This document shows, one piece after another, positions 11,418-53,394 of a stretch of DNA of 64,000 nt. The notes under the pieces were generated by a model. The model saw only the letters and a list, made by a program, of their open reading frames with translations. It had not been told where the DNA came from and ran no database searches. This DNA comes from an uncultured Bacteroidota bacterium (GTDB lineage Bacteria; Bacteroidota; Bacteroidia; Chitinophagales; Chitinophagaceae): the NCBI GenBank assembly GCA_903851465.1, contig CAINOI010000030.1, positions 22,795-86,794 of the forward strand, in the 5' to 3' direction. The position numbers and the translations under genes are program-made. Each line of letters begins with the position of its first letter. The first letter of the stretch is position 1.

Positions 11418-12131
11418 ATGCAAACAATATTACATACATCAGATTCAAGAGGAGACGCAAACCATGGTTGGTTACATAGCAAACACAGTTTTAGTTTTGC
11501 CAATTATTATAATCCAGAAAAAATACACTTTGGTGTATTGCGTGTATTGAATGATGATTTTGTAGCTGCCGGTATGGGGTTTGGATTACATCCGCACGAC
11601 AATATGGAAATTATTTCTATTCCATTAGAAGGTGATTTAGCGCATCAAGACAGTATGGGTAATCATACAGTCATTAAACACGGCGACATTCAAGTAATGA
11701 GTGCTGGTACTGGTATTAAACACAGCGAGTTCAATCATAATAAAGATAAACCTGTTAAGTTTTTACAAATTTGGGTGATACCAAATAAAAAAGATGTAAC
11801 GCCTCGTTATGATCAAATCACATTAGATCCTGCAAATCGAATCAACAAATTAGAGCAAATACTTTCTCCAAATGCCGATGACGCTGGTGTTTGGATCCAT
11901 CAAGACGCTTGGTTTCATATAGGCAAGTTTGACCTAGACTTTGCTACTAATTACAAAGTAAAAAAAGCTGGGAATGGTTTGTACGCTTTTGTCTTGTATG
12001 GTTCATTTGAAGTTGCTGGACAAACATTAGCTGAAAGAGACGCATTAGGTATTACAGACTTTGATCAATTTGAATTAAAGGCTTTGACAAAGGATGCGGA
12101 AATATTACTAATGGAAATTCCATTGCAATAG
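11418..12131 (+). CDS. Pirin family protein
   Basis: RGDANHGWLHSKHSFSFANYY, HPHDNMEII, QVMSAGTGIKHSE. ATG 11418 preferred over the ORF-track start. Confidence 0.92.
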   Translation: MQTILHTSDSRGDANHGWLHSKHSFSFANYYNPEKIHFGVLRVLNDDFVAAGMGFGLHPHDNMEIISIPLEGDLAHQDSMGNHTVIKHGDIQVMSAGTGIKHSEFNHNKDKPVKFLQIWVIPNKKDVTPRYDQITLDPANRINKLEQILSPNADDAGVWIHQDAWFHIGKFDLDFATNYKVKKAGNGLYAFVLYGSFEVAGQTLAERDALGITDFDQFELKALTKDAEILLMEIPLQ

Positions 12132-14192
12132 TAAAGAATAAGTTCGCCCCATTGCATAGATACCTGATCCATGCGTTTTGTATTTTTCATTCAGTAGATT
12201 GATACCTCCTAACTGTATAAACACATTATTAAATTGTTGATTGACGCTAATGTTAAATACATTCCAATTGGGTGTGCCATTTTTACCAATGCGGTTGTCA
12301 TCCTTATCTCCCTGTGCTAATCGATCTTGCTTTCCAGCAAATAAATGTTGAACCAGTATTTGCGTATTATTTTTTTTCCAAACTAGTTCTTGTTGACCAA
12401 ACAAAGGTGGAATACGCCTCATTGGTTCATTCTTTGTTTCATTTTGCCCGTAGGTATAGGTTAAATTACTTGACCATCTAAACTGTGTATTGAATTGAAG
12501 GGCTAAATTGGTTTCGAATCCTTGAATAAAAGAAGCTTCTGAATTTTGTTTGGAATATACTTGATAGCCATTGATGATACTCCCTGTCACCTTTTGTCTT
12601 GTGATGATATCATTTAATTTTAAATAAAAGCCACTTAAATCAAATTGAATCAGTTTTGTATTTAGTTTGTATCCCAATTCATAATGCAATGATTTCTCAG
12701 GTGCTAAATTACTGGTTGGTAATTCATATCTAAAATCAACAATACCTAATGTGCCCATATCATCAATATTCGGAGCACGGTATCCAGAGGATAGGGAAGC
12801 ATACACTATATTGGATGTATTTAATTTATAAGCGACACCTCCATTTCCAACTAATGCGGATGGCTTTATATTCACGGAACCAATACTTGTATCTGTTAAT
12901 TGTATTCCAAATTTATTCCAACGAACTCCTGCTTCTATATGCCATTTTTGTAGTTCTATTTTATGCAAATTAAATACCGAAAAACTTTTATAACTGCTAT
13001 TATTTGGGTAAAGCCCTCTTTTGTTGACAGAAATCCCTGTGGTTAAATTTTTATCAATTAGTTCACTCGCTATTTTATCCGAATTATAATCTATCCCTGA
13101 ATTGATTTCCCAATTTTTTGTTGGATTGGAATAAAGATCAATGCTTGTTCCATTAGAATTCACTTGGTCTCTTTCGTATCTATAAATAACATTATTCAAT
13201 TTATTACTTTCTCTTGCCTCATTTGAATACTGTATAGACTGTATCACTTTAATTTTAGAAAGGTATTTAGACTGTAAGTTTTTTTCCCACTGAATAGAAT
13301 GGATATTTCTTTCCTGTTTAGTAATTTTATTGATTTTAAAGCCCTCTAATAAAACTTTATGATAAATAGGCACATCTTTTTGGATAAAGAAACGGGATGA
13401 TATGGTCATTTCCTCTGCTTTGTTTAATTGTATTTTAGCGATCGTATTGATCCCTGTTTCGCCATAACCACTTGGGCTTTGAATACCTACATTATTTCCG
13501 CCAACTAAGTCCCCGAAATTTCTTAATGTAATTCCAGACTGTATTGCAAAGTTTTTTTGCGCATACTGTAAGGTAGTTCTATTGGACCTTTCCATATTCT
13601 GCCCTATATATTTTAATGAAGCACTAGTACTCCAAGTCTTTTTTTGATTGTACGAAGGCATATAGGAATGCAAATGAATCACACCTCCAATGGCATCAGA
13701 TCCATATTCAACAGAACCAGTTCCCTTACTGACATCAATTTGACTAATCGTATACAAATCGATATTGTTTAAATATTGATTGGGCCCATATCTGAAAGTA
13801 GCATTGTTAATACGAACACCGTCCAACATTAATAATGTTTGATTACCAGTAAGGCCTCTTATAAATGCAGAGCCCCCACCATGGTTTGTTTTTTGAATAA
13901 AAACACCCGAACTACCCACTAGTGCCTCGGGGGTTGTTCTATAATTCCCTATTTGAATTGCTTCTGCATTTTTTTGCACTATGCTGTAAGGCAGGTTGAA
14001 CTTATTTTTTTGTAGCATCCTGCTTTTAACAACAATAGAATCTAAATAAACATAGCTTGTATCGCCCAGACTATTTTTATAATTTGCCTTTGCAATTTTT
14101 ATGCCATAACTAAAACAAAAAAGGGTACTAATAAAAAAAATCAACTTAATATTTTTGTTCGACTTTAAATTTTTATTCATTTTCGATTTCAT
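12108..14192 (-). CDS. TonB-dependent receptor (non-SusC type, ligand unknown; start uncertain, 14180 or 14192)
   Basis: Plug motif QKTNHGGGSAFIRG...LDGVRINN, GSDAIGGVIHL, LAPEKS; overlaps the pirin 3' end convergently. Confidence 0.88.
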   Translation of the reverse strand: MKSKMNKNLKSNKNIKLIFFISTLFCFSYGIKIAKANYKNSLGDTSYVYLDSIVVKSRMLQKNKFNLPYSIVQKNAEAIQIGNYRTTPEALVGSSGVFIQKTNHGGGSAFIRGLTGNQTLLMLDGVRINNATFRYGPNQYLNNIDLYTISQIDVSKGTGSVEYGSDAIGGVIHLHSYMPSYNQKKTWSTSASLKYIGQNMERSNRTTLQYAQKNFAIQSGITLRNFGDLVGGNNVGIQSPSGYGETGINTIAKIQLNKAEEMTISSRFFIQKDVPIYHKVLLEGFKINKITKQERNIHSIQWEKNLQSKYLSKIKVIQSIQYSNEARESNKLNNVIYRYERDQVNSNGTSIDLYSNPTKNWEINSGIDYNSDKIASELIDKNLTTGISVNKRGLYPNNSSYKSFSVFNLHKIELQKWHIEAGVRWNKFGIQLTDTSIGSVNIKPSALVGNGGVAYKLNTSNIVYASLSSGYRAPNIDDMGTLGIVDFRYELPTSNLAPEKSLHYELGYKLNTKLIQFDLSGFYLKLNDIITRQKVTGSIINGYQVYSKQNSEASFIQGFETNLALQFNTQFRWSSNLTYTYGQNETKNEPMRRIPPLFGQQELVWKKNNTQILVQHLFAGKQDRLAQGDKDDNRIGKNGTPNWNVFNISVNQQFNNVFIQLGGINLLNEKYKTHGSGIYAMGRTYSLLLQWNFH

Positions 14193-14225
14193 CCTTAACT
14201 TTTTTACTAATAAAATTTTATTGTC

Positions 14226-14264
14226 AAAAAAGCCACTCAAAAAATACTTTAATGAATGGCTTTT
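14226..14264 (-). terminator. Probable terminator after the phosphoesterase pair
   Basis: Minus strand reads AAAAGCCATTCA-loop-TGAGTGGCTTTT followed by more T. Confidence 0.55.
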
Positions 14265-14282
14265 ATATTATATGAGCCTTAA

Positions 14283-16688
14283 TTAATCAATTATTTTTAT
14301 GAAAGCACTTCTCTTAGGCGCTGGCATTTCGCTATTAATTCCTTTAATGGCCTTCCATAAAATTTGATTAAACAATAAATCTGGTACTTTATCTTCCTTG
14401 CTAAAATCCATGCTTTCACTCAACTTAGACAAGGCATCTACTTTAATATTTTTTTCATTGATATCAACCAATGGATTAATTACATTGTAAGGTGTTTTAT
14501 TCACTTTAGTATCAAATGATCTCCACATTGGTTCTGCAGCGGCATCATATTGACTCATTGGCGGTAAGCCAAGAATTAACTCCATTGTTCTTAACATGCT
14601 CGAAGTCGAATACATCGTGTGGTCTACAAACCCTCTTTTAACAAATCCTCCTGCAACATATGCTGTTGAGCGATGTGCATCCACATGGTCTGCTCCATTT
14701 TGTGCATCATCTTCTAAAATAAAAATTGCAATTTTATCCCAAATAGGATGTTTGCTTAAATAGTCTACGAATAAACCAACTGCATAATCATTGTCAGCTA
14801 CATGCGCAAAAGGCGTTGGTCTACCCACCCTTGTACCTTCGGTGTGGTCATTGATAAAACGCATTGTATTTAATGCAGGCACTTGATTGATAGCGTATAA
14901 TGAATCAAAATCTCTTTTCCATTGATAGAATCTAGAAGTGTCTCTTACTTTCTCATCCCAGCTTGTAAAATACGGACAGAATTTACCTTGTAAGGTTGGA
15001 TAATTTGCTTCATAATCATCTGCAAACTCTCCATAGGTTCTAAAGCTCACTCTTGCTTTTAAGGCATGATCCCATAAAAATCCTCCTTTAGGCGATGCAA
15101 TATTTTTTTGACCTTCATAATCATAGGTACCACCTCTTCCACCATAACTAGTTACCCAAGTTTTTTCATTGTAATCATTGGCATAAGCAGCCATACTCCA
15201 ACTATGTCCGTCAGCACTTACTTCTGCATCTACATAAAAATTATCTAATAAAACAAATTGCTCTGAAATTGCGTGTTGGTTTGGTGTGATATTTCTTCCA
15301 AAAAGCAATAAACTGCTATCTCCATTGCCTTGAGGTAAATCACTTAGTACCTGATCATAAGTTCTATTTTCTTTGATCATATAAAACACATGCTTGATTG
15401 GAGAACTATCGCCTACATTTTTTGGTATTGGATTACCTTTCATACCTGAGGTTGACAATTCCTTACTTTTATCATAAGGCGTATTTAGATAGACTTGCTT
15501 AGTTAAGCTAGTTAGTTCTGCCAATGTTGGTTCCTTGAAAATAGAAAGGGTACCCTTAAATAAACCACCAATATATTGGACTGGTTCTGGTTTTGCTTTT
15601 ATATCTCCTGCTTGGTAGTTCACTGTTTGTTTTCTTTGAACTGGACTTGGCCCATTTGGATTTGCCTTTGAGCTAAGCCCTTTACCATTGGTTACGAATA
15701 AAGTATTACCTACAATTTTTAAATTAGTTGGATACCACCCAGTAGGGATAAAACCTATACTTGAACTAAATCCTTTTTTTGTCACATCAAAAACGGCTAA
15801 ATTATTATTGTCGGCATTGGCCACATATAATCTTGATTCGTTTTCGTTTAATGCCAACCCATTAGTAGTAGATCCGTTTGGTGCATTTGCAAACAAGGCA
15901 CAATTCAGTACTTCGACAATTGTTAAAGACTTTGTATCTACCACGGCAACACTATTGTCATTTGCATTGGCAACATATAAATAGCTTCCGTTTTTTGTTA
16001 TTAACAATTCATTTGGATTATCGCCGATGGCTAATTTTTTAATTGTTTGTTTTGTCTTTGTATCCCAAATCAATAACTGGTCTGCACCCCATAATGAAAT
16101 ATATAATTGTTTTTTATCAGGACTTAACATACAGGTATATGCTTCTGAGCCTAATGCATATGTAGTGAATTTTTTTGATTCAAGATTAATTTCATACAAT
16201 GTATTATTCTCTTTTGATACCACATACATAATATTAGTTGCATCATTGATGCATAGCCCTGTTGGTGAAATTTTAACTGGCCATTTTCCTCCTAGCTTGA
16301 TAGAGTCGACTAATTTTAATTTACTAGAAACAATTTCATATTTTAAAATCCAATTATCGTTTCCACCACTTGCGTACAAGAATTGGTTATTTTTACTAAA
16401 AGCCAATCCATACCAACTTTTTGGTGTGGTTACATAATCTAATATTGTTTGCTTAGCAATATCTACCAAGTGAATACCTTGTGTACTTTGACCGTTATTA
16501 GTGATGGCTGCAAATTTTTTATTTGGACTTACAACAATATTTAGCGGCAAATCTTGTAATGGCAACTGTTTACCAATTGGAGTTAATTTCCAATTATTTG
16601 GCAAAACGGTCTGTTGCATTTGACCGTTACTTGTTATAGCTGCAAACAAACTAGCTGCTAAGCATATAAGCGTAAATTTCATTTTCAT
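14283..16688 (-). CDS. Secreted YncE/YVTN beta-propeller plus phosphoesterase (PLC/AcpA-like) protein
   Basis: Signal peptide, propeller repeats (IPTGWYP), SPIKHVFYMIKENRTYDQV, DNFYVDAEVSADGH, NDHT, EDDAQNGADHVDAHRS. Confidence 0.85.
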   Translation of the reverse strand: MKMKFTLICLAASLFAAITSNGQMQQTVLPNNWKLTPIGKQLPLQDLPLNIVVSPNKKFAAITNNGQSTQGIHLVDIAKQTILDYVTTPKSWYGLAFSKNNQFLYASGGNDNWILKYEIVSSKLKLVDSIKLGGKWPVKISPTGLCINDATNIMYVVSKENNTLYEINLESKKFTTYALGSEAYTCMLSPDKKQLYISLWGADQLLIWDTKTKQTIKKLAIGDNPNELLITKNGSYLYVANANDNSVAVVDTKSLTIVEVLNCALFANAPNGSTTNGLALNENESRLYVANADNNNLAVFDVTKKGFSSSIGFIPTGWYPTNLKIVGNTLFVTNGKGLSSKANPNGPSPVQRKQTVNYQAGDIKAKPEPVQYIGGLFKGTLSIFKEPTLAELTSLTKQVYLNTPYDKSKELSTSGMKGNPIPKNVGDSSPIKHVFYMIKENRTYDQVLSDLPQGNGDSSLLLFGRNITPNQHAISEQFVLLDNFYVDAEVSADGHSWSMAAYANDYNEKTWVTSYGGRGGTYDYEGQKNIASPKGGFLWDHALKARVSFRTYGEFADDYEANYPTLQGKFCPYFTSWDEKVRDTSRFYQWKRDFDSLYAINQVPALNTMRFINDHTEGTRVGRPTPFAHVADNDYAVGLFVDYLSKHPIWDKIAIFILEDDAQNGADHVDAHRSTAYVAGGFVKRGFVDHTMYSTSSMLRTMELILGLPPMSQYDAAAEPMWRSFDTKVNKTPYNVINPLVDINEKNIKVDALSKLSESMDFSKEDKVPDLLFNQILWKAIKGINSEMPAPKRSAFIKIID

Positions 16689-16732
16689 AAATTGCTGATT
16701 ATTATTTAATAAATTGATCGATGTATTTAATA

Positions 16733-19441
16733 TTATTGGATAATGGTGCCAGAGGTTTTATAGTGCTCTGTTCTTTGTTCTTTTTCATTATCCATGGTAG
16801 GACCTTGCTTAATTTTTTTCCAATCTAAATTGTAATTGTATTTTTTCATTGCTTTATCCCAATCAAATACTTCCTGACTAGGGAATTCAAAATAGTAGGG
16901 ACTAAAATCTGGTTCATTGGTAAAAAAATCAGTTAACAAAGAAGCTGTGACATCATATTGGTTCACATAAGGAACACCTAATACATTGTAAATGACTTTC
17001 AAGATGGATCCAAAATTGGCATGGGTACTTGAGACATAATTCTTCTTTACATAAGGACCTGCCATCATCAATACACTTCTGTGTGCATCTATATGATCTA
17101 CCCCTCCTTGTGGATCATCTTCAGTTACAATGACTAACATATCCTTCCAATACGGTGTTTGACTCAAAAATTGCATCATTCTTCCTAAAGCCAAATCATT
17201 GTCTGCAACATAAGAATGCATAAAGGGATAGCCGTCTTCTGGTCTAGGTCCAGCAGTATGGTCATTAGGCAACATCACTGTCAATAACTGAGGCAAACTA
17301 TCTTTTCCGTTTAACCATTTTTTTGTAAACTCTTCTTCAAATTGCTTCATTCTAAATTGGTCTGGAATATTGGTATTGTAACCAGCAAAATTATGTGATG
17401 TTTTTCCCCAAACACCTTTCTGCATTGGCACCATTACGATATGACCAGCGCCGGTTGCGGTATCATACCAATCTTCTCTTACATGCGCAGTTTCATTTGC
17501 TTGCCCAAAATTATAATAGCTAATTTTTTTTCTGTCTAATGCTTCCCATAAGCCTCCAATCTCGGCATAATCTTCTGGGTCCATACTGCCTGTAGATCCT
17601 GGGAACCTTCTACCAGATGCGGTCGAAAAATAATCAGCAGACTTATCTGTACTTGAATTTGCCTCTACCCACTCATTCGGTATTACGCCCATCATCCAAT
17701 GGTGTCCATGAATAGATGCATCACTGTCGCAATAAAAATTATCACTCAACGAAAATTGCTTTGCAATTTTAATATGATTCGGTGCCACGTTAACATGCTT
17801 CACAACTTTATTTTTTCCAAATACATTCACATCTAATCCAAATCTTGCTAATGTTGGATCGCCATTCACCGTTTTCATTTGACCAAAAATTTCATCAAAT
17901 GTTCTATTTTCTTTGGTAATAAAAACGACATGTTTGATAGGACTTAATTTGCTACCTGGTAAAACAGGTAATGGCAGACTATCTGTTTGTTCTTTTACAA
18001 TATAGGTTTGAGCCAATGCTTGTTTTGTATAGGTTGCAAGTGTTGTAGGGTCTGGATTAAGCACTTCTTGGAATCCGCCTAATTGAATATCCCCCACATA
18101 AGTACCTTGGATAGGTGCAATGAAATTTTTTCCTCCATTTTGACCTGCACCTAAACCTCTGCAAGATGTGATGTATATTTTTTGTTCGTCATTAGACAAT
18201 GCGACTCTTGTAGTGCCCCATCCTGTTGGAATTAATCCAGTGGTAGTAGAAGTTTTTAAATCAATTTTTGCAACTGCATTAAATCCTAATAAGGCTACAA
18301 ATAGGGTACTTTCATCTTTTGTAATCGCAATACCAAATGGCAATAAGCCTCTGTATTTATCTAATTTTGGATCTACTTTAATAGGGATATGTTTGACAAT
18401 CTTTCCTTTTTTATAATCAATCACAGCAATATTATCGTTGGTCGCATTGGTCACATAGGCATACTTTTTACCTACTGCAATTGAATTAGGACTTGCGCCG
18501 CCAATCACTTCCGCATCTTCTACTAGCTCACCTAATAATAAACCAGTTTTTAATTTTGCTTTAGTCGTATTGGTTGTAAGATCAATACAATAAACACTCA
18601 TTGATTCCTTAGCATTTGGATCACCTAAACCTGGTATTTCTTTCCCGTCAATCTCGGTGCCTTCAATAGACTCCTTTGTGTTATTACCGTAAGGATGCCA
18701 GCCAATATATTGTGTTTTAATATTTTCTTTTGTAGTACCAGCAACTAAAGGATAATCATACATTCCCACATTGGCAACTAAAACCGTTTTTTGATCGGGA
18801 GAGATGGCTAAGCCAAAGGGTTGGCGACCGGTTGGAATAGAGGCAACAATTTTATTTTCAGTAAGACTATAACGAACCAATCTAAAATTACCTCTATCTA
18901 AAATTAATAAATGATTAGAGGCTTCATGGTATACTAGGTCACTTGTAAAACTGCCCGAGAAATTAGTACCATTGAATAAACCATCTAATTTAATAGAATC
19001 AATTTTTTTAAATTGCGCGTAATCATATATTACAACTGTGCCTTCGTCTCCACCACTTAGGTATACAATCTTTTTAGTTGGGTGAAAAGCAATACCCAAG
19101 AAAGAACCCTTTTTTAATGGACTTTCGTTTGCTTTTAAATAATCTGGAATACGCTTTGTTGATTGTGTTTGCAAGTCTATTAGGGTAAATACATTTTCAT
19201 GTAATGCTATCGCTACTTTTCCGTCTGGGGCAATTTTTAAACCAAATGGGTCGTGGGTAATTCTAATTGATTTTCCAACTGGCTGTACATACCTTCCGCT
19301 CGGTAAAATGGAAACACCAGAAGGGTCTATTTTAGCGAATTCGTTAAAACCAGGAACTGTTAAAAAAGATTGTTTTTGTTGGGCGATTGAATGGTTAATA
19401 CAAAACAAAATAAAAACCACTAAAAAAAGATATTTTTTCAT
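16733..19441 (-). CDS. Second secreted beta-propeller plus phosphoesterase protein
   Basis: SPIKHVVFITKENRTFDEI, DNFYCDSDASIHGH, PNDHT, EDDPQGGVDHIDAHRS; ATG at 19441. Confidence 0.85.
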   Translation of the reverse strand: MKKYLFLVVFILFCINHSIAQQKQSFLTVPGFNEFAKIDPSGVSILPSGRYVQPVGKSIRITHDPFGLKIAPDGKVAIALHENVFTLIDLQTQSTKRIPDYLKANESPLKKGSFLGIAFHPTKKIVYLSGGDEGTVVIYDYAQFKKIDSIKLDGLFNGTNFSGSFTSDLVYHEASNHLLILDRGNFRLVRYSLTENKIVASIPTGRQPFGLAISPDQKTVLVANVGMYDYPLVAGTTKENIKTQYIGWHPYGNNTKESIEGTEIDGKEIPGLGDPNAKESMSVYCIDLTTNTTKAKLKTGLLLGELVEDAEVIGGASPNSIAVGKKYAYVTNATNDNIAVIDYKKGKIVKHIPIKVDPKLDKYRGLLPFGIAITKDESTLFVALLGFNAVAKIDLKTSTTTGLIPTGWGTTRVALSNDEQKIYITSCRGLGAGQNGGKNFIAPIQGTYVGDIQLGGFQEVLNPDPTTLATYTKQALAQTYIVKEQTDSLPLPVLPGSKLSPIKHVVFITKENRTFDEIFGQMKTVNGDPTLARFGLDVNVFGKNKVVKHVNVAPNHIKIAKQFSLSDNFYCDSDASIHGHHWMMGVIPNEWVEANSSTDKSADYFSTASGRRFPGSTGSMDPEDYAEIGGLWEALDRKKISYYNFGQANETAHVREDWYDTATGAGHIVMVPMQKGVWGKTSHNFAGYNTNIPDQFRMKQFEEEFTKKWLNGKDSLPQLLTVMLPNDHTAGPRPEDGYPFMHSYVADNDLALGRMMQFLSQTPYWKDMLVIVTEDDPQGGVDHIDAHRSVLMMAGPYVKKNYVSSTHANFGSILKVIYNVLGVPYVNQYDVTASLLTDFFTNEPDFSPYYFEFPSQEVFDWDKAMKKYNYNLDWKKIKQGPTMDNEKEQRTEHYKTSGTIIQ

Positions 19442-19458
19442 AGACAAAAGTTGAACAG

Positions 19459-19466
19459 CAAACCTA
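19459..19466 (-). promoter_or_regulatory. -7 element TAGGTTTG for the phosphoesterase operon
   Basis: Exact TAnnTTTG ending 17 nt before the ATG at 19441. Confidence 0.65.
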
Positions 19467-19555
19467 CCAATATTTGAAATGGTTCTATTTTATTTAAAAC
19501 ATTAATTTATTGTTAAGCAAACGTATTAATTATATTAATAATACTGTTCAGATGT

Positions 19556-19634
19556 GTTAACAATTCCGAAACAATTAGTTCATCTATTGTTCATATCCAC
19601 TTTCAAATTTGTTAAAGGATTCACAATAGATTTG
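19556..19634 (+). promoter_or_regulatory. 11-bp-period direct-repeat array (Pho-box-like) plus -7 element TAGATTTG
   Basis: GTTAACA 19556, CGAAACA 19567, GTTCATC 19578, GTTCATA 19589, CTTTCAA 19600 (degenerate), GTTAAAG 19611; TAGATTTG 19627-19634. Confidence 0.7.
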
Positions 19635-34024: not shown

Positions 34025-34029
34025 TGGAT

Positions 34030-34050: not shown

Positions 34051-34065
34051 CTCAAACCATCGCAT

Positions 34066-35912: not shown

Positions 35913-35913
35913 T

Positions 35914-39394: not shown

Positions 39395-39451
39395 ATTAAT
39401 ATTAAGTTAATAATTAAGACACATTCTAATAACACAGATAGGCTTACTTTA
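39395..39451 (+). promoter_or_regulatory. 11-bp-period repeat array (Pho-box-like) plus variant -7 element
   Basis: ATTAATA 39395, GTTAATA 39406, AGACACA 39417 (degenerate), AATAACA 39428; TTACTTTA 39444-39451 (non-canonical -7). Confidence 0.6.
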
Positions 39452-39467: not shown

Positions 39468-40313
39468 ATGAACAAACGCCCATTGGATGTATGTGTAATT
39501 AGTGATATTCATCTAGGTACATTTGGCTGCCAAGCACATGAATTACTAAATTATTTAAAAAGCATCGAACCAAGTACCCTAATTTTAAATGGCGATATTA
39601 TTGATATCTGGCAATTTAACAAGCGCTATTTCCCAGCAAGCCATATGGCAGTGATAAAACGTATTTTCAGTATGGCTAGTAAAGGGACTAGAGTGGTTTA
39701 TATTACTGGCAATCATGACGAAGCATTAAGAAAATATGGTCATTTTGAAATGGGCAATATACAATTGACCGATAAAATTGTATTTGAAATCAATGGTGAA
39801 AAAAACTGGGTATTCCACGGTGATGTATTTGATAGAACAACTAAAGGAAGCGCTAAATTATTAGCAAAACTAGGTGGATATGGCTATGATTTATTGATTT
39901 TAATCAATAGTGCAGTGAATTATTTGTGTGCACTTTTTGGCCGCGAAAAAATGAGTATCAGCAAACAGGTGAAGAATGGTGTAAAGAAAGCAGTTTCTTG
40001 GATCAATAACTTCGAGCAAACAGCTGCAGAATTGGCTATTGAAAATGGCTATAAATATGTGATTTGTGGCCATATACATCAACCTCAACATAGAGTCGTG
40101 TCGACTGAAAAAGGCAGTGTAACCTATTTAAATAGTGGGGATTGGATTGAAAATTTAACGGCTTTAGAATATGCGGATAAAGCTTGGAGCTTATATCAAT
40201 ATGATCCTAAACAATTCGAAAAAGCTGATTCAAAAAAACTGACTAAAATAGTTAATTTACAAGAAGAACTTACCGTATTAACCAACGAAGTAGCATTTCA
40301 AGTATCTATCTAA
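39468..40313 (+). CDS. plcP: PlcP-like intracellular phospholipase C (usually annotated UDP-2,3-diacylglucosamine diphosphatase)
   Basis: SDIHLGTFGCQA, GDIIDIW, GNHD, HGDVFD, LAKLGGYGY, VKKAVSWINNFE, ICGHIH match the PlcP pattern recalled from Sinorhizobium and marine bacteria. Confidence 0.72.
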   Translation: MNKRPLDVCVISDIHLGTFGCQAHELLNYLKSIEPSTLILNGDIIDIWQFNKRYFPASHMAVIKRIFSMASKGTRVVYITGNHDEALRKYGHFEMGNIQLTDKIVFEINGEKNWVFHGDVFDRTTKGSAKLLAKLGGYGYDLLILINSAVNYLCALFGREKMSISKQVKNGVKKAVSWINNFEQTAAELAIENGYKYVICGHIHQPQHRVVSTEKGSVTYLNSGDWIENLTALEYADKAWSLYQYDPKQFEKADSKKLTKIVNLQEELTVLTNEVAFQVSI

Positions 40314-41302
40314 TGAATATACTTTACGCAGTTCAAGGTACTGGAAATGGGCATATTAGTAGAGCCATTCAACTATATCCATTTTTAAAGACATATGGTA
40401 ATGTAGATTTTTTCATTAGTGGATCCAATGCTGATCTTAAAACAGATTTACCCGTCGTAGGCAGAAGTAAAGGGATTAGTCTTTTTTATAAAGCGACTGG
40501 AGGACTTGATTATTTAAAAATAGTAAGGTCTTTTTCTTTTGATATTTTTTTAGATGCCTATAAATTACCTGTCAATAAGTATGACTTGGTGATCAATGAT
40601 TTTGACTTTGTAACATCATTGGCTTGTTTATTTAGGAAAAAAAAGAGTGTACAGTTTGGACACCAAGCAAGCTTTCAAAGTAATAAAACACCAAGGGCAA
40701 AAAACAATAACTTTTTTGGAGAATTTATTTTAAAGCATTTTGTAAAAAGCACCCATTACCTTGGCTTACATTTTAAAGCATATGACGAGCATGTGTTTAA
40801 TCCAATCATTAAACAAGAAATCATTGATGCTTCACCAACCGATGATGGTCATATTTCCGTCTATTTGCCGCATTACTCTATTGCCTATTTAGAGCCTTAC
40901 TTTTTAGCAGAACCAAATTATCATTTTGAAGTGTTTAGTGCCGAAGTGACATCAATAAGAAATTATAAAAATATTGTATACTTTCCTATCAGTAATAGTG
41001 GTTTTACTAAAAGTATGATCAGGTCACATGCAGTCATTACTGGCGGCGGCTTTGAGACACCAGCAGAGGCAATGTATATGAATAAAAAGGTATTAAGCAT
41101 ACCAATAGCAAAGCATTATGAGCAATTATCAAATGCTGCTGCTTTAAAAGACTTAGGGGTAAAAGTTTTATTACAGATAGACCAAGACTTTCACGCTATA
41201 TTTACAGAGTGGATCAAGCATACTGCTCCTGTAAAACTAGAATTAACCCATTCCACAAAAGAAATTGTGGCCCAATTAATTAAACAAACACAAAACAGTT
41301 AA
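40313..41302 (+). CDS. GT-B glycosyltransferase, MJ1255/VC2487-like
   Basis: MNILYAVQGTGNGHISRA, VINDFD, ITGGGFETPAEA, HYEQLSNA; TAATG coupling to plcP. Confidence 0.85.
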   Translation: MNILYAVQGTGNGHISRAIQLYPFLKTYGNVDFFISGSNADLKTDLPVVGRSKGISLFYKATGGLDYLKIVRSFSFDIFLDAYKLPVNKYDLVINDFDFVTSLACLFRKKKSVQFGHQASFQSNKTPRAKNNNFFGEFILKHFVKSTHYLGLHFKAYDEHVFNPIIKQEIIDASPTDDGHISVYLPHYSIAYLEPYFLAEPNYHFEVFSAEVTSIRNYKNIVYFPISNSGFTKSMIRSHAVITGGGFETPAEAMYMNKKVLSIPIAKHYEQLSNAAALKDLGVKVLLQIDQDFHAIFTEWIKHTAPVKLELTHSTKEIVAQLIKQTQNS

Positions 41303-41304
41303 AG

Positions 41305-41649
41305 ATGTACAAAATATTGAATCAAGAGCAAGAAGTAGTAGCGTATATTCAAAACATGATGATCTTGAATAAAAAAAGAGAAAAAGTAATTGGCCTAGTA
41401 ATCGGAGATTGCTTTTTCGGCAATGACAATAAAGTGATTGGTAAAATTATTGACCAAAAAGTTTATTTATTAAATGGGGACATCATTGGTATGGTAGAAG
41501 CGAATAAAGATAAAAAAGACCCAGAGCTTAAAAAAGGCCTGATGTTAGAGGCTTGGGATATTTTAAGCAATATTAAAAGTCACACTTCTGATTGGATTAC
41601 CATCTCAAAAAAATGGTCAAAAAAGTCATTTATAGAAGTATTGCTTTAA
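41305..41649 (+). CDS. Small hypothetical protein with repeated V/I-I-G beta-hairpins
   Basis: 114-aa ORF 2 nt after the GT stop; KVIG/DIIG repeats. Confidence 0.6.
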   Translation: MYKILNQEQEVVAYIQNMMILNKKREKVIGLVIGDCFFGNDNKVIGKIIDQKVYLLNGDIIGMVEANKDKKDPELKKGLMLEAWDILSNIKSHTSDWITISKKWSKKSFIEVLL

Positions 41650-48975: not shown

Positions 48976-49032
48976 GTTAATATTAAGTTCATATTGGCTT
49001 AACAATTTGGTAACATGAGTATTTGATATTTG
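48976..49032 (+). promoter_or_regulatory. Four-unit 11-bp-period repeat array (Pho-box-like) plus variant -7 element
   Basis: GTTAATA 48976, GTTCATA 48987, CTTAACA 48998, GGTAACA 49009; GATATTTG 49025-49032. Confidence 0.72.
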
Positions 49033-49053: not shown

Positions 49054-51810
49054 GTGAAAAGGATACTACTATTTATAATTTGTTTTGTTGCAGCAGTTTC
49101 GGTTCAAGCGCAAAAAGCAAAATTGACAGGTAAGGTTACAAACGTAAAAAATGATGTTTTAGTTGGCGTTACACTAACTTTAAAATCGGATAAGAGCCAA
49201 GTTTCAAAAACAGATATCGAGGGAAGATTTAGTTTTAATATAGATATCAATAAAGCATATTCATTAGATTTATCTTATGTAGGTTACAAAGCAAAATCAA
49301 TTGATGTTACTGGTGCTACCACTGCTAACGAAGAGATCGTATTAGATGTATTATTAGAAGAAGCAGGAAAAAATTTAACGGATGTAGTGGTTTCTGCTAC
49401 AAGATCTACTAATAAAGGAGCTACGGATAATGCATTGATAGCTTATCAGAAAAATACCAATACGGTTGCTTCTGTAATTTCTGCAGAATCTATTAAGAGA
49501 AGTCCAGATAGAAACACTGCTGAAATCTTAAAAAGAACTCCAGGTGCATCTATCCAAGAAGGTAAATATATTATTGTAAGAGGTTTGGCGGATCGCTATA
49601 ACCAAGCGATGTTGAATGGTATTTTGTTAACAAGTACAGAGCCAGACAGAAAAACATTCTCATTTGATTTATTCCCTTCTCAAATCATTGACAATATCAT
49701 TATCAATAAAGCATTCGTTCCAGAGTTACCAGGTGAGTGGGCTGGAGGTTTAATTCAAGTAAATACAAAAGATGTTCCAACAAAGAACTTCTTTAATATT
49801 CAAATCGGTACTAGTGCTAATACATTAGTTACTGGAAAAGATTTCTTAAAAGACGAAGGCGGTAAAACAGATTATTTAGGTTTAGATGATGGTACAAGAT
49901 CTATGCCTGCTGGATATACTACAAAATCAAATTTTGATACATCTAGTTTAGCTACAAAAGCAGAATTGGGTAAAAGAATGTCAAATAACTGGTCTCCAGT
50001 GACAGTTACTGCTAAGCCAAATGTAAGCTTACAAATGAATGGTGGTTTTAGCGGTACTTTATGGGGTAAAAAAATAGGTGGTATTATTGGAGTAAACTAT
50101 GCGAATGCATACCGTTTCCAAGATAATGTCAACAATCAAAATGGTATTGTTGGTAATACAATCAATCCAATTATTGAATTAAAAGACAAAAAGTATATTA
50201 ACGATATTAATATGGGTGCTATTGCTGGATTGTCTATGTTCATAAACCCTTTGAATAAAATTAGTTATAAAGCAATTGTAAACGTTAAAACAGCAAATTC
50301 ATTCAATTCTAGAGCTGGTAAAGATTATTCTAGACAAGATTTAGTGAAAGGTAACGAATTTGTATTTGGACAAAATGTTTTCTTTACCAATCAATTGAAT
50401 GGTGAGCATAGCTTATCTCAAAAATTAAAATTCAATTGGTATGGTGCATTCAATATATTGGATAGCTATAGCCCGGATCAAAGAAGAATTTTATATACTA
50501 AGAGTGTAGCTGGTACAGATCCTTATGTATTGAATATTTCAAACACTTTATCTCAACAATCAGGTAGCCGTGTATTCCAATCTTTATCTGATTATATCTA
50601 TACAGCTGGTGGTGATTTAACTTTAAAAGTAAAGCAACAAACCATCAAAACAGGTTACATGATGCAAATTAAAGATCGTATGTATGACGCTCAATTATTT
50701 GCTGTTTACTTGCCAAGAGATAATGCTGAATTAAGAGGCTTAGATGCGGCTTCAGCTTTTGTACCTCAAAATTTTGGAAATGGTACAGATAATAAATTTG
50801 CTTTCAACTCTATTCAAAATAGAAACTTCAGATACATGGCCAACACCATTTTAAATGCTGGTTATGTTCAATTTGATAATAAATTATCAGATGGTTTAAG
50901 AGTGGTATGGGGACTGAGAGTAGAAAACTTTGACCAATTAGTAGGTTCAGTTAAGAAATGGGATGATCGCCATACCTATTCAAAAGTAACTGACTTCTTA
51001 CCTGGTGTAAATGCTACAATCAAATTAGGTCAAAAATCAAACTTAAGATTGACAGGTTCTCAAACTGTAATTCGTCCAGAATTAAGAGAGTTATCTAAAT
51101 TAACCATCTATGATTTTGATTTAAACGCAGCAGTATCAGGTGAACCAAATTTAAAAAGAACAAAAATTACCAATTTAGACTTTAGATATGAATTGTATCC
51201 AGGTGCTGGAGAAATGTTTACAGTGGGTGTATTCTACAAAAACTTTGATAACGCTATTGAAAGCATTTACTATGAAGGTTCTGGAGGATCAAGTTTATTT
51301 ACTTATCAAAATGTAGCTAAGGCGACTGCGTTTGGTTTTGAAGTAGAAGGTCGTAAAAAATTATCTACTAGATTTACTTTACAAGCCAACGGTTCTTATA
51401 TCAATTCAAAAATTGAAGATGCTGCGCTTAAAGTAAGCAGATCTTTACAAGGTCAGTCTCCGTATTTGATTAACGCTGGTCTATTATATGATGTAGTAGA
51501 GAAAGGATTTAACATGACAGCATTATTTAACCAAGTAGGTAAAAGAATTTATCTAGTGGGAGATGCATTTGGTGCAGGTTCACCAGATGTATTTGAAAAC
51601 CCAAGAGCATTGGTGGATTTCCAAATCAGTAAAAAGTTTGCTGAGAACAAAGCTGAAATTAAATTTACCATTTCTGATATCTTGAATCAAAGACAAATTT
51701 TCTATCAAAACAATAACAGCAATACAGATTATGATAAGTCTAAAGATGCTATTCGTTTCTCTAGAAAATTCGGTACAACTTTTGGTATTACACTTAACTA
51801 CACATTATAA
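49054..51810 (+). CDS. TonB-dependent receptor with N-terminal CarboxypepD_reg-like domain (GTG start)
   Basis: IVRGLADRYN, FDLFPS, PELPGEWAGGLIQVNT plug motifs; IRPELREL; terminal LNYTL. Confidence 0.92.
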   Translation: MKRILLFIICFVAAVSVQAQKAKLTGKVTNVKNDVLVGVTLTLKSDKSQVSKTDIEGRFSFNIDINKAYSLDLSYVGYKAKSIDVTGATTANEEIVLDVLLEEAGKNLTDVVVSATRSTNKGATDNALIAYQKNTNTVASVISAESIKRSPDRNTAEILKRTPGASIQEGKYIIVRGLADRYNQAMLNGILLTSTEPDRKTFSFDLFPSQIIDNIIINKAFVPELPGEWAGGLIQVNTKDVPTKNFFNIQIGTSANTLVTGKDFLKDEGGKTDYLGLDDGTRSMPAGYTTKSNFDTSSLATKAELGKRMSNNWSPVTVTAKPNVSLQMNGGFSGTLWGKKIGGIIGVNYANAYRFQDNVNNQNGIVGNTINPIIELKDKKYINDINMGAIAGLSMFINPLNKISYKAIVNVKTANSFNSRAGKDYSRQDLVKGNEFVFGQNVFFTNQLNGEHSLSQKLKFNWYGAFNILDSYSPDQRRILYTKSVAGTDPYVLNISNTLSQQSGSRVFQSLSDYIYTAGGDLTLKVKQQTIKTGYMMQIKDRMYDAQLFAVYLPRDNAELRGLDAASAFVPQNFGNGTDNKFAFNSIQNRNFRYMANTILNAGYVQFDNKLSDGLRVVWGLRVENFDQLVGSVKKWDDRHTYSKVTDFLPGVNATIKLGQKSNLRLTGSQTVIRPELRELSKLTIYDFDLNAAVSGEPNLKRTKITNLDFRYELYPGAGEMFTVGVFYKNFDNAIESIYYEGSGGSSLFTYQNVAKATAFGFEVEGRKKLSTRFTLQANGSYINSKIEDAALKVSRSLQGQSPYLINAGLLYDVVEKGFNMTALFNQVGKRIYLVGDAFGAGSPDVFENPRALVDFQISKKFAENKAEIKFTISDILNQRQIFYQNNNSNTDYDKSKDAIRFSRKFGTTFGITLNYTL

Positions 51811-51846
51811 TATTACAAACAAACACTTTTTTTAAATACAACAACA

Positions 51847-53394
51847 ATGAAACAATTATTTATTTTATCTCTCGCTTTTTTAGCCATTACTGGTTGTAGA
51901 AAGATCGAAACAGACGGCGAAAAAGAAATCTTCGTAGTTACAACTACGAAAGAAGTTGCACCTGTAGGTGTGGTAGTGAATACCATTACTTTATCTGGTG
52001 TATTAACAAAAGACACTACTTTATATGCAAAAGATATCAACTATCTTTCAGGTAAGGTATATGTTCCAAAAGGAATTACTTTAACAGTTCAAGCTGGTGC
52101 AAAAGTGCAAGGTAAGTCTGGTTCAAATGTGGCTGCTTTGATTGTAGCACGTGGCGGTAAATTAGTTGCAATAGGAACTGAAACATCTCCAATTGTGTTT
52201 ACATCTTCTTCTCCAAATCCACAATCTGGTGACTGGGGTGGTATCGTATTATTAGGTACTGCAACTGTAAACCAATCTTTATCTTGGAAAGGAACAACCT
52301 ACACTGGTTTAACTTCAGTGGAAGGTGGTGTAAATGATACAGAAGTAGGTTATGGTTTAGCAGGGTCTGGTGATCCAGCTTTCCCAACAGGAAATGATGC
52401 CGATAATTCTGGTACTTTACAATATTTAAGAATTGAGTATGCAGGTTATGCATATTTACCAGATAACGAATTGAATAGCTTAACAATGGCAGGTGTAGGT
52501 CGTGGTACGACTATCGACCACATCCAAGTTACTTATGCAAAAGATGATGCATTCGAGTGGTTTGGTGGTACAGTAAACTGTAAGTATTTGATTGCTTACA
52601 AAACACAGGATGATGATTTTGATACAGATTTTGGATATTCTGGTAATGTTCAATTTGGTATCGCATTAAGAGATTCAGTAATTGCTGATATCTCTACATC
52701 AGAAGCGTTTGAATCTGATAACGATGGTAGTGGATCAACTAAGACTCCAAAAACAACTGCTGTTTTCTCTAATATGACTGCAATTGGACCAAGAGCTACT
52801 TTAGATAATAAAGGAAATAGTTTATACAGAGCTGGTGCGCATATCAGAAGAAATACTGGTATCTCTATCATGAACTCAATTATTGCTGGATGGCCAGTAG
52901 CCGTTCAATTTGATGCGTCAACTGGAACTGCAGTAGATAAAAATATTGACGATAGTACAATTAGAATCAAGAATACGACTTTTGCTGGTAACACTGCAAA
53001 TATCACTTATACTGCTAGCGGTACACCAACAGGTGCGTCTAGTGCCAGTTTATTGACTTGGTTTACTAACCCTTTTTACGAAAACACAATTTTAACCAAT
53101 GCTTCTGCAGATAGATTAAAATTAATTCAACCGTTTAATTACACCAATCCTGATTTCACACCATACGCAAATAACTCAACTCCTTCTACAACTCCTTCAA
53201 CTCCATCAACAGATCCTTTTACATCTGCTTGGGGAACATTAGGAATTTGGGATCATGTGAATTTCACAAAGAATGGTTCTTTCACTGATGTTAAATTACA
53301 AAATGCATTCTTTGAAAAAGTAACATTCAGAGGTGCAGTTGCAACATCTGGTCCAAACCAAACTTGGTGGAAAGGTTGGACAATTTGGAAATAG
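51847..53394 (+). CDS. Uncharacterised surface lipoprotein, probable right-handed beta-helix
   Basis: Lipobox ITGC-RKIETDGEKE, GDWGGIVLLG, DNSGTLQYLRIEYAG, NSLTMAGVG, DDAFEWFGG, DDDFDTDFG. Confidence 0.78.
   Translation: MKQLFILSLAFLAITGCRKIETDGEKEIFVVTTTKEVAPVGVVVNTITLSGVLTKDTTLYAKDINYLSGKVYVPKGITLTVQAGAKVQGKSGSNVAALIVARGGKLVAIGTETSPIVFTSSSPNPQSGDWGGIVLLGTATVNQSLSWKGTTYTGLTSVEGGVNDTEVGYGLAGSGDPAFPTGNDADNSGTLQYLRIEYAGYAYLPDNELNSLTMAGVGRGTTIDHIQVTYAKDDAFEWFGGTVNCKYLIAYKTQDDDFDTDFGYSGNVQFGIALRDSVIADISTSEAFESDNDGSGSTKTPKTTAVFSNMTAIGPRATLDNKGNSLYRAGAHIRRNTGISIMNSIIAGWPVAVQFDASTGTAVDKNIDDSTIRIKNTTFAGNTANITYTASGTPTGASSASLLTWFTNPFYENTILTNASADRLKLIQPFNYTNPDFTPYANNSTPSTTPSTPSTDPFTSAWGTLGIWDHVNFTKNGSFTDVKLQNAFFEKVTFRGAVATSGPNQTWWKGWTIWK

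What the first reader, a model, noticed from the sequence alone, without database searches (positions are those of the whole stretch)
19556..19634. Shared Pho-box-like promoter architecture in three phosphorus-related promoters
Seen: 7-mers of consensus about GTT[A/C]A[T/C]A recur with an 11-bp period, starting 49, 38, 27 and 16 nt before the -7 element at three places: 19578-19611 (-7 at 19627), 39395-39428 (-7 at 39444) and 48976-49009 (-7 at 49025). The last two share TTAATATTAAGTT(A/C)ATA. Two of the three -7 elements are non-canonical, as expected for activator-dependent promoters. Known: OmpR/PhoB-family regulators bind 11-bp-spaced direct repeats. Inference: a Bacteroidota PhoP/PhoB-type regulon. 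The cognate regulator is not in the window, some units are degenerate, and the DNA is AT-rich.
Basis: partly seen in the sequence, partly recalled or inferred. Interest (0 to 1): 0.8.

Follow-up and report, generated by a model that had tools for sequence, protein, structure and literature searches.

The report
Pho-box repeats in Chitinophagaceae phosphorus promoters
Three promoters in this freshwater Chitinophagaceae genome carry the same row of short DNA repeats spaced one helical turn apart; the row is conserved in dozens of related species in front of phosphorus-scavenging genes, so it is very probably the phosphate-starvation switch (Pho box) of this group, for which I found no published consensus.

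Summary
At all three sites, 7-mers of consensus n(T/G)T(A/C)A(C/T)A recur every 11 bp on the gene's strand, in fixed register with a Bacteroidota-type -7 box.

- **Independent scan:** a matrix trained only on other species' plcP promoters, aligned on the -7 box without using the motif, ranks the three sites 1, 2 and 3 of about 128,000 window positions. Scores are 31.9, 24.4 and 23.9, against a shuffle maximum of 17.1.
- **Conservation:** the array is kept upstream of orthologues of all three genes in many species. Only 11-bp spacing and only the gene's strand give signal.
- **Downstream genes:** phosphonate uptake and catabolism (site 1), PlcP-like phosphoesterase plus glycosyltransferase (site 2), and a TonB receptor plus lipoprotein (site 3).
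- **Related loci:** the same array precedes PhoU/PitA genes, alkaline-phosphatase-superfamily enzymes and PAP2 phosphatases. Only two units, a weak score, precede a PhoB/PhoR-like pair.

The best reading is a Pho box bound by tandem PhoB-type dimers that stands in for the -33 element.

One refinement applies to site 1. Its four conserved units lie 71 to 38 nt before the -7 box, starting at 19556.

Binding and phosphate response are inferred, not shown. This is a new member of a known kind, of moderate interest.

The parts
19556..19617 (+). Site 1 array of six 11-bp slots: GTTAACA (19556), CGAAACA (19567), GTTCATC (19578), GTTCATA (19589), weak CTTTCAA (19600) and GTTAAAG (19611). A conserved TTTG at 19608-19611 overlaps the last slot.
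   Evidence: score 24.4, second best of the window. In the alignment of 17 orthologous intergenic regions, the first four units and TGTTAAAG are conserved and slot 19600 is not. 21 of 29 SusC orthologues score at least 13.
19627..19634 (+). Site 1 -7 box TAGATTTG, a canonical TAnnTTTG.
   Evidence: Conserved as TAGrTTTG in the orthologues. It ends 19 nt before the ATG at 19653.
19653..28226 (+). Site 1 operon: SusC-like receptor, SusD-like protein, DUF5690/MFS transporter, TIGR03364 FAD oxidoreductase, Phn-HD phosphonate oxygenase and PhnX-like hydrolase. Together these look like a phosphonate uptake and catabolism locus.
   Evidence: Pfam. NCBIfam: TIGR03364 scores 391.8 against a cutoff of 285; TIGR03276 scores 223 against 214.6; TIGR03351 scores 216.8, just under its cutoff of 218.9.
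19500..19517 (-). Two-unit block CTTAACAataaATTAATG on the minus strand. This is a probable single Pho box for the divergent operon.
   Evidence: Fourth best array of the window (18.4). Conserved in 24 distinct orthologous promoters, 51 and 40 nt before the -7 box.
19459..19466 (-). -7 box TAGGTTTG of the minus-strand operon.
   Evidence: Invariant in the 17 orthologous regions aligned. It served as the search anchor for the promoters. Coordinates.
12108..19447 (-). Divergent operon: two beta-propeller plus Phosphoesterase-family (PF04185) proteins and a TonB-dependent receptor.
   Evidence: Pfam.
39395..39434 (+). Site 2 array of four slots: ATTAATA, GTTAATA, AGACACA, AATAACA.
   Evidence: score 23.9, third best of the window. 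The orthologous plcP promoters keep four units in exactly these slots.
39444..39451 (+). Site 2 -7 box TTACTTTA, which is non-canonical.
   Evidence: It aligns with ACTTTG and ATTTTG -7 boxes of orthologues.
39468..41649 (+). Site 2 operon: PlcP-like metallophosphoesterase, glycosyltransferase and a 114-aa protein. This looks like lipid remodelling that spares phosphorus. The ppk and ppx genes lie divergently at 36370-39318.
   Evidence: Pfam and NCBIfam. PlcP plus glycosyltransferase is a described P-starvation module (PMC4796936; PMC8115612).
48929..48961 (+). Hairpin plus U-run, the terminator of the upstream carbonic anhydrase gene. It isolates the site 3 promoter.
   Evidence: 13 bp, -18.5 kcal/mol, z = -6.4.
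48976..49015 (+). Site 3 array of four slots: GTTAATA, GTTCATA, CTTAACA, GGTAACA. A weak fifth unit, CTTTATC, lies at 48965.
   Evidence: Best hit of the window (31.9) and rank 1 when held out. Five orthologous receptor promoters carry about six consecutive scoring units of the GTTAACA type; of the other two examined, one has a three-unit array and one has none.
49025..49032 (+). Site 3 -7 box GATATTTG, with one mismatch to TAnnTTTG.
49054..53394 (+). Site 3 operon: a TonB-dependent receptor (918 aa) and a 515-aa lipoprotein with no family match.
   Evidence: Pfam. No Pfam or NCBIfam hit for the partner. Lipobox, and conserved adjacency to the receptor in five species.

Best explanation
These are Pho boxes, the operators of the phosphate-starvation regulon of a Chitinophagaceae bacterium.

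**Proposed mechanism.**
- Each unit is a 7-bp core n(T/G)T(A/C)A(C/T)A plus a 4-bp spacer. It would bind one winged-helix domain of a phosphorylated PhoB-type (OmpR family) response regulator.
- Units lie head to tail every 11 bp, so all bound proteins sit on one face of the helix.
- Four units, meaning two dimers, are the rule. Some promoters have six.
- The last core ends 9 nt before the -7 box. The array therefore covers the place of the -33 element, and the activator would recruit RNA polymerase to promoters whose own elements are weak, as at sites 2 and 3. Site 1 keeps both core elements.
- Under low phosphate this would switch on phosphonate uptake and breakdown (site 1), replacement of phospholipids (site 2) and an outer-membrane receptor-lipoprotein pair (site 3).

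**Shown:** the anatomy, its conservation, and the gene content. **Inferred:** the binding protein, activation rather than repression, the transcription start sites, and the response to phosphate.
For: - **Anatomy.** Only 11-bp spacing and only the gene's strand give signal. An alignment of 69 plcP promoters made on the -7 box, without using the motif, shows information peaks in four slots that start 49, 38, 27 and 16 nt before the -7 box.
- **Independent detection.** A matrix from other species ranks the three sites 1 to 3 in the window, above every shuffle.
- **Conservation.** 75 of 77 plcP promoters exceed the random 95th percentile. Against 474 control upstream regions of equal GC content, the medians are 17.2 and -1.1, p = 3e-34. 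SusC orthologues fetched through a different gene have a median score of 21.8. Flanking sequence diverges while the units persist.
- **Regulon content.** Phn-HD oxygenase, PhnX-like hydrolase and TIGR03364 oxidoreductase; PlcP-like enzyme and glycosyltransferase. In related loci: PhoU_div with PitA, alkaline-phosphatase-superfamily enzymes and PAP2 phosphatases; a PhoB/PhoR-like pair is preceded by two units only, with weak 4-unit scores.
- **Experimental parallel.** PlcP, a glycosyltransferase, TonB receptors with hypothetical lipoproteins, and SusCD-like complexes are induced by Pi depletion in F. johnsoniae (PMC8115612).
- **Similarity to known Pho boxes.** Cyanobacterial CTTAACCT with a 3-bp linker (PMC1906773) and Streptomyces GTTCACC (PMC4415409). 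The E. coli box also sits 10 bp upstream of the -10 element.
Against: - No binding or expression data exist for this organism.
- No response-regulator gene lies in the window.
- The PhoB-like regulators in related loci score best against PhoB models but stay below the curated cutoffs: 231 against 296 and 212 against 270. Only two units precede them, giving weak 4-unit scores of 6 to 7.
- The closest solved structures are MtrA, RegX3 and BaeR, so regulator identity is not settled.
- All comparison loci were chosen around phosphorus genes, so the enrichment of phosphorus functions is partly built in.
- Site 1 has canonical -7 and -33-like elements. It may therefore be less dependent on an activator than the model implies.
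- No pstSCAB promoter could be examined.
Confidence: 0.8

Rival explanations
1. The arrays are operators of another OmpR/PhoB-family regulator that answers a different signal, such as envelope stress or general starvation, and only happens to control several phosphorus-linked genes.
For: The candidate regulator scores below the PhoB cutoffs and resembles MtrA, RegX3 and BaeR about equally. Head-to-tail 11-bp repeats are common to the whole family. A few hits lie upstream of genes with no clear link to phosphorus, such as GSHPx, GNAT and a short-chain dehydrogenase.
Against: Nearly every high-scoring target has a phosphorus function: phosphonate catabolism, PhoU/PitA, phosphatases, PlcP. The best family match of the regulator is PhoB, and the best matches of its kinase are PnpS and PhoR. 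Orthologous families are Pi-induced in Flavobacterium.
Confidence: 0.1
2. The arrays are repressor operators. A protein bound over the -33 region shuts these promoters off when phosphate is plentiful.
For: The array overlaps the core promoter, a position compatible with occlusion. Site 1 has good core elements that could work without an activator.
Against: Sites 2 and 3 and most orthologues have imperfect -7 boxes, and most receptor orthologues have no TTTG at -33. That pattern is typical of activator-dependent promoters. The geometry matches activating Pho boxes. Known PhoB-family regulators activate from this position (established knowledge).
Confidence: 0.05
3. The pattern is a by-product of AT-rich intergenic DNA, for example helical phasing of A/T tracts or UP-like elements, with no specific binding protein.
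For: The window has about 35% GC, and the cores are AT-rich. The simple two-unit consensus is matched by 1 of 100 shuffles.
Against: 474 control upstream regions of equal GC content have a median score of -1.1. Shuffles never reach the observed scores. The motif is clearest in the receptor promoters of other species, whose spacers and flanks contain more G and C, where it reads GTTAACA five or six times. Conserved positions are specific bases, T3 and A5, not composition.
Confidence: 0.02
4. Each GTTAAC core is a small palindrome bound by a symmetric dimer, so the sites are rows of inverted repeats rather than direct repeats.
For: GTTAAC is self-complementary. The opposite strand gives a weak signal, median 4.3.
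Against: Conservation is asymmetric. A5 is at 0.95 but T2 only at 0.44, and A7 at 0.68 has no symmetric partner. Arrays are oriented with the gene. Common variants such as GTTCATA are not palindromic.
Confidence: 0.02

Closest known systems
Cyanobacterial Pho box (SphR of Synechocystis and relatives)
   Same: Three or more tandem direct repeats with an 11-bp period, made of an 8-bp core and a 3-bp linker. The core CTTAACCT shares (C/G)TTAAC with the units here. It lies upstream of phosphatase and phosphate-transport genes, and it was defined largely by phylogenetic footprinting (PMC1906773).
   Different: Here the last core positions are (C/T)A rather than CCT. Four units in fixed register with a Bacteroidota -7 box are the rule. 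The phylum and sigma factor differ, and nothing has been tested experimentally.
Escherichia coli Pho box (PhoB)
   Same: Two or more 11-bp direct-repeat units, each with 7 conserved and 4 less conserved bases. The box sits about 10 bp upstream of the -10 element in place of a -35 element (PMC4415409; PMC1906773). Here the last core ends 9 nt before the -7 box.
   Different: The core CTGTCAT differs. GTTCATA matches TGTCATA at 5 of 7 positions (my own comparison). E. coli needs only one box of two units at many promoters. E. coli promoters are of the -10/-35 type, not -7/-33.
Streptomyces coelicolor PhoP operators (direct repeat units, core GTTCACC)
   Same: 11-nt direct repeat units in variable number, forming simple and complex operators. 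The GTTCA core equals the GTTCA(T/C)A variant seen here (PMC4415409).
   Different: That context is GC-rich. Those operators act as both activator and repressor sites at varied positions. Here the position relative to the -7 box is nearly fixed.
Bacillus subtilis PhoP boxes (TT(A/T/C)ACA repeats with about 5-bp spacers)
   Same: The hexamer TTAACA repeated with an 11-bp period is essentially the core found here. Four repeats, for two dimers, are typical.
   Different: Firmicute sigma-A promoters. Some of those genes also carry sites inside the coding region. This comparison was not tested here.
Flavobacterium johnsoniae PHO regulon (Lidbury et al., PMC8115612)
   Same: The gene families match: PlcP, a glycosyltransferase, TonB receptors paired with hypothetical lipoproteins, and SusCD-like 'Pus' complexes with phosphonate or phosphoester enzymes, next to phoBR. 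Flavobacterium plcP promoters in my loci carry about three AACA-type units at 11-bp spacing.
   Different: That study defines the regulon by expression and contains the words 'promoter' and 'motif' nowhere. This finding supplies the candidate operator, but in another class (Chitinophagia) and without expression data.

Membership tests
Pho box (operator of a PhoB/PhoP/SphR-type response regulator) | Head-to-tail direct repeats of a 7-8 bp core with an 11-bp period | tested here: met
   Only spacing 11 scores (median 15.8, against about 0 for 8-10 and 12-14). The gene's strand gives 15.8 and the opposite strand 4.3. Base conservation within the unit is asymmetric.
Pho box (operator of a PhoB/PhoP/SphR-type response regulator) | At least two units, enough for one dimer | tested here: met
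   Four units at sites 2 and 3, and six slots at site 1. Four information peaks appear in 69 orthologous promoters.
Pho box (operator of a PhoB/PhoP/SphR-type response regulator) | Fixed position next to the core promoter, about 10 bp upstream of the -10-equivalent element and covering the -35-equivalent | tested here: met
   The last unit starts 16 nt before the -7 8-mer, a 9-nt gap, at all three sites and in the -7-anchored alignment. The -7 boxes are assigned from sequence. No transcription start site is mapped.
Pho box (operator of a PhoB/PhoP/SphR-type response regulator) | Found upstream of several phosphorus-acquisition or phosphorus-sparing operons | tested here: met
   Phosphonate catabolism genes, PlcP with a glycosyltransferase, PhoU_div with PitA, alkaline-phosphatase-superfamily enzymes and PAP2 phosphatases. 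The comparison loci are themselves phosphorus-gene neighbourhoods, which inflates this enrichment.
Pho box (operator of a PhoB/PhoP/SphR-type response regulator) | Core sequence related to experimentally defined Pho boxes | tested here: met
   Shares (C/G)TTAAC with the cyanobacterial CTTAACCT and GTTCA with the Streptomyces GTTCACC. It is more distant from the E. coli CTGTCAT.
Pho box (operator of a PhoB/PhoP/SphR-type response regulator) | A cognate phoB/phoR pair is present and often autoregulated | tested here: inconclusive
   No response-regulator domain was found in any window protein scanned. Related loci L038 and L058 hold a regulator and kinase whose best family matches are PhoB and PnpS/PhoR, but below the curated cutoffs. 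Only two units precede them.
Pho box (operator of a PhoB/PhoP/SphR-type response regulator) | Downstream genes are induced by phosphate limitation | not testable with these tools
   The only evidence is by analogy: orthologous families are Pi-induced in F. johnsoniae (PMC8115612).
Pho box (operator of a PhoB/PhoP/SphR-type response regulator) | Bound by the phosphorylated regulator (footprint, EMSA or ChIP) | not testable with these tools
   This needs an experiment.
Bacteroidota primary-sigma promoter (-7 TAnnTTTG, -33 TTTG) | TAnnTTTG shortly upstream of the gene | tested here: met
   Site 1 has TAGATTTG, a perfect match. Site 3 has GATATTTG (5 of 6 specified bases) and site 2 has TTACTTTA (4 of 6). 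They end 17 to 22 nt before the start codons. The consensus itself is taken from my own knowledge.
Bacteroidota primary-sigma promoter (-7 TAnnTTTG, -33 TTTG) | TTTG near -33 | tested here: inconclusive
   TTTG lies 19 nt before the -7 box at site 1, where it is conserved across species, and at site 3. Site 2 shows none at that position by my own reading of the sequence. Most receptor orthologues lack it.

The most novel reading that the evidence does not exclude
This may be the first defined Pho-box consensus for Bacteroidota: four to six GTTAACA-type units at 11-bp spacing, ending 9 nt before the -7 box.

- It is conserved in Chitinophagia and, in weaker form, in Flavobacteriia.
- It would be enough to predict phosphate-regulated 'Pus' loci, lipid-remodelling genes and unknown lipoproteins directly from genomes and metagenomes.
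- It would also give a model for how a PhoB-type activator replaces the -33 element for the unusual Bacteroidota primary sigma factor.
Probability: 0.55. Interest if true: 0.55.

Novelty: new member of a known kind. Interest (0 to 1): 0.45.

Why it matters
Bacteroidota are major recyclers of organic phosphorus in lakes, soils and the rhizosphere. Their phosphate-starvation regulon has been defined by expression only; in the papers I could search I found no operator sequence.

A validated consensus with a fixed promoter geometry would have three uses:
- Phosphate-controlled genes, including the many hypothetical lipoproteins and TonB or SusCD systems, could be predicted from sequence alone in uncultured freshwater lineages such as the one in this window.
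- It would give phosphate-inducible promoter parts for Bacteroidota genetics.
- It would offer a test case for activator-sigma contact at -7/-33 promoters.

Tried and rejected
- **Sigma-70 promoter scan.** It does not apply to Bacteroidota promoters. Its terminator pattern also missed the clear hairpin at 48929-48961, which folding confirmed.
- **Rfam scan of the whole window.** No family reached its gathering score, so no RNA element explains these regions.
- **Regulator identity from solved structures.** The top hits are MtrA, RegX3 and BaeR, which is uninformative. I did not compare recognition helices, because I would have had to recall them from memory.
- **Other candidate sites in the window.** 48900(-), 61295(-), 63543(+) and 2440(+, upstream of the SusC gene at 2674) score 8.6 to 13.5. 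That lies within the shuffle range (mean maximum 12.5), so I rejected them.
- **MauG/MbnH-like gene at 41667-42911.** No array lies upstream.
- **ppk.** Its upstream side scores 12 to 15 in only a few relatives, so I did not claim it.
- **Four-unit array for the minus-strand phosphoesterase operon.** Rejected: the median score over 58 orthologues is -0.1. A conserved two-unit block replaced that idea.
- **Literature.** Searches for a Bacteroidota Pho-box consensus found none. One 2026 bioRxiv preprint containing both words could not be opened, so prior description cannot be fully excluded.

Full report
**1. What is there**

The window has about 35% GC. By its closest relatives it comes from a freshwater Chitinophagaceae bacterium; the PlcP-like protein is 96% identical to that of a Chitinophagales MAG.

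- Site 1: GTTCATC, GTTCATA, CTTTCAA and GTTAAAG at 19578, 19589, 19600 and 19611. The -7 box TAGATTTG is at 19627.
- Site 2: ATTAATA, GTTAATA, AGACACA and AATAACA from 39395. The -7 box TTACTTTA is at 39444.
- Site 3: GTTAATA, GTTCATA, CTTAACA and GGTAACA from 48976. The -7 box GATATTTG is at 49025.
- At each site the first unit starts 49 nt before the -7 8-mer.
- At site 1, two further in-phase units, GTTAACA and CGAAACA, lie at 19556 and 19567.

**2. Is it more than chance?**

- **Simple consensus.** GTTMAYAN4GTTMAYA with at most one mismatch gives four hits, all inside the three sites. Shuffles give 0.75 +/- 0.88.
- **Leave-one-site-out scoring** over both strands, 127,934 positions. Site 3 ranks first. 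With site 1 held out, the best hit outside the two training sites is 19556. Site 2 ranks 15th, behind only the training sites, their shifted copies and one coding hit at 48900(-).
- **Independent matrix.** I aligned 69 plcP promoters from other species on their -7 box, without using the motif, and built a matrix from the four slots. On the window it puts site 3 (31.9), site 1 at 19556 (24.4) and site 2 (23.9) in first, second and third place. Markov-1 shuffles of the window reach a mean maximum of 12.5 and an overall maximum of 17.1.
- **Spacing and strand.** Only 11-bp spacing gives signal (median 15.8, against about 0 for 8-10 and 12-14 bp). The signal is on the gene's strand, 15.8 against 4.3.

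**3. Conservation**

- **plcP promoters.** A matrix made from sites 1 and 3 only was applied to the upstream regions of 77 plcP orthologues with 59-96% protein identity. 75 exceed the 95th percentile and 53 the 99th percentile of random expectation. The best array sits 70-95 nt before the start codon, in steps of 11.
- **Control regions.** Against 474 other upstream regions from the same loci, with equal GC content, the medians are 17.2 and -1.1 (Mann-Whitney p = 3e-34).
- **Motif-blind alignment.** The unit is n(T/G)T(A/C)A(C/T)A, with T3 (0.87) and A5 (0.95) strongest.
- **Site 3 orthologues.** Five of the seven orthologous TonB-receptor promoters examined carry about six consecutive scoring units of the GTTAACA type; one more has a three-unit array and one has none. 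Their spacers and flanks contain more G and C, which argues against a composition effect.
- **Site 1 orthologues.** In a second, independent set of 80 loci fetched through the neighbouring phosphoesterase gene, 29 SusC orthologues have a median score of 21.8. 21 of the 29 score at least 13.
- **Site 1 intergenic alignment**. The units at 19556, 19567, 19578 and 19589 are conserved. Slot 19600 is not. TGTTAAAG at 19611 and TAGrTTTG are conserved.

At site 1 the conserved four units sit two slots further upstream, at 71 to 38 nt. The last slot overlaps a conserved TTTG that may be the -33 element.

**4. The genes**

- **Site 1** drives a SusC/SusD pair, a DUF5690 transporter, a TIGR03364 FAD oxidoreductase, a Phn-HD phosphonate oxygenase and a PhnX-like hydrolase. 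This looks like a phosphonate utilisation locus.
- **Site 2** drives a PlcP-like metallophosphoesterase, a glycosyltransferase and a small protein, divergent from ppk-ppx. PlcP with a glycosyltransferase is the known lipid-remodelling module of phosphorus starvation (PMC4796936).
- **Site 3** follows a strong terminator. It drives a TonB receptor and a conserved lipoprotein with no family match.
- **Related loci.** The highest-scoring arrays that are not at plcP precede:
  - orthologues of these same genes;
  - PhoU_div with a PitA-type transporter;
  - alkaline-phosphatase-superfamily enzymes;
  - PAP2 phosphatases;
  - a PhnX-like hydrolase;
  - glycosyltransferases;
  - a few proteins of unknown function.

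  A regulator-kinase pair also lies in two of these loci. Its best family matches are PhoB and PnpS/PhoR, below the curated cutoffs, and only two units precede it.
- **Experimental parallel.** Lidbury et al. showed that PlcP, a glycosyltransferase, TonB receptors with hypothetical lipoproteins, and SusCD-like Pus complexes are strongly induced by Pi depletion in F. johnsoniae. That paper contains no promoter or motif analysis (PMC8115612).

**5. Mechanism**

The best reading is a Pho box, with confidence 0.8.
- Each 11-bp unit would bind one DNA-binding domain of a phosphorylated PhoB-type regulator, head to tail on one face of the helix, usually as two dimers.
- The array ends 9 nt before the -7 box. 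It therefore occupies the -33 region, as the E. coli box replaces the -35 element 10 bp upstream of the -10 element (PMC1906773).
- The imperfect -7 boxes at sites 2 and 3 fit dependence on an activator.
- The anatomy, conservation and gene content are shown. The binding protein, the direction of regulation, the start sites and the phosphate response are inferred.

Rivals:
- Another OmpR-family regulator responding to a different signal (0.1).
- A repressor operator (0.05).
- An AT-rich composition or curvature artefact (0.02).
- Palindromic GTTAAC operators (0.02).

The last two are contradicted.

**6. Comparison with what is known**

- The architecture is that of known Pho boxes: 11-nt direct repeat units with 7 conserved and 4 variable bases (PMC4415409).
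- The core is closest to the cyanobacterial SphR box CTTAACCT, to the Streptomyces GTTCACC and, from my own knowledge, to the B. subtilis PhoP repeat TTAACA.
- It differs from the E. coli core CTGTCAT.
- The differences are the phylum, the -7/-33 promoter type, and the rule of four units in fixed register.
- The sequence-testable membership features are met, apart from the cognate phoBR pair, which is inconclusive. Binding and Pi induction cannot be tested with these tools.

**7. Novelty**

- I found no Bacteroidota Pho-box consensus in the searchable literature. The B. fragilis PhoB study and the Flavobacterium PHO-regulon study give none.
- One 2026 preprint mentioning both terms could not be read.
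- I rate this a new member of a known kind. It is useful for predicting regulons in environmental Bacteroidota and is not surprising in principle.

**8. Also seen**

- The minus-strand operon next to site 1 encodes two beta-propeller/phosphoesterase proteins and a TonB receptor.
- It has a perfectly conserved -7 box, TAGGTTTG, and a conserved two-unit block, CTTAACAataaATTAATG, lying 51 and 40 nt upstream of it.
- This is probably a single Pho box, in a register 2 nt off the usual one.

Noticed in passing
window 19459-19517, minus strand: A conserved two-unit block, CTTAACAataaATTAATG, lies 51 and 40 nt before a perfect TAGGTTTG, ahead of the divergent beta-propeller/phosphoesterase and TonB-receptor operon (19447-12108). 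It is kept in 24 distinct orthologous promoters. Its register is 2 nt off the 49/38 slots, and no four-unit array is present.
   Followed up: yes
window 48929-48961: A 13-bp hairpin plus U-run (-18.5 kcal/mol, z = -6.4) terminates the carbonic anhydrase gene just before site 3. The terminator pattern scan did not report it.
   Followed up: yes
window 51847-53394: A 515-aa lipoprotein (lipobox LAITGC) has no Pfam or NCBIfam match. It always lies next to the site 3 TonB receptor in related species, at 35-56% identity. It may be a counterpart of the Pi-induced hypothetical lipoproteins of Flavobacterium.
   Followed up: partly
window 19608-19611 and 49006-49009: A TTTG lies 19 nt before the -7 box at sites 1 and 3. 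At site 1 it is conserved across species and overlaps the last repeat slot, so that slot may be a -33 element as much as a regulator site.
   Followed up: partly
window 41667-42911 (minus) and 42912-43276: An MbnH/MauG-like di-haem enzyme gene has no repeat array upstream, although the MauG-like gene of F. johnsoniae is strongly Pi-induced.
   Followed up: partly
window 32918-36327: A riboflavin biosynthesis cluster (ribD, ribE, ribBA, ribH) sits next to nadC, nadA and nadB. No Rfam family, including the FMN riboswitch, reaches its gathering score anywhere in the window.
   Followed up: no
L038 5050-6809 and L058 5303-7043: A PhoB-like response regulator and a PnpS/PhoR-like kinase lie a few kb from plcP in two Chitinophagaceae MAGs. 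Two good units (GTTAATAttaaGTTATCA; GTTAACAatttGGTAATC) lie upstream, in phase with the -7 box. This is a candidate autoregulated phoBR pair.
   Followed up: partly
L104 8232-8600, L110 8988-9356, L118 4165-4533; also L048 14233-14577 and L058 7216-7560 (orthologues of window 41305-41649): Small proteins of 114-122 aa without a convincing family match carry their own repeat arrays upstream in related loci. They are possible uncharacterised members of the regulon.
   Followed up: no
L069, L073, L079, L080 (Flavobacterium/Flavobacteriaceae plcP promoters): About three units of the type (A/T)AACA or ATAATA, at 11-bp spacing, lie directly before the -7 box. The architecture therefore seems to extend to class Flavobacteriia in a shorter form.
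   Followed up: partly
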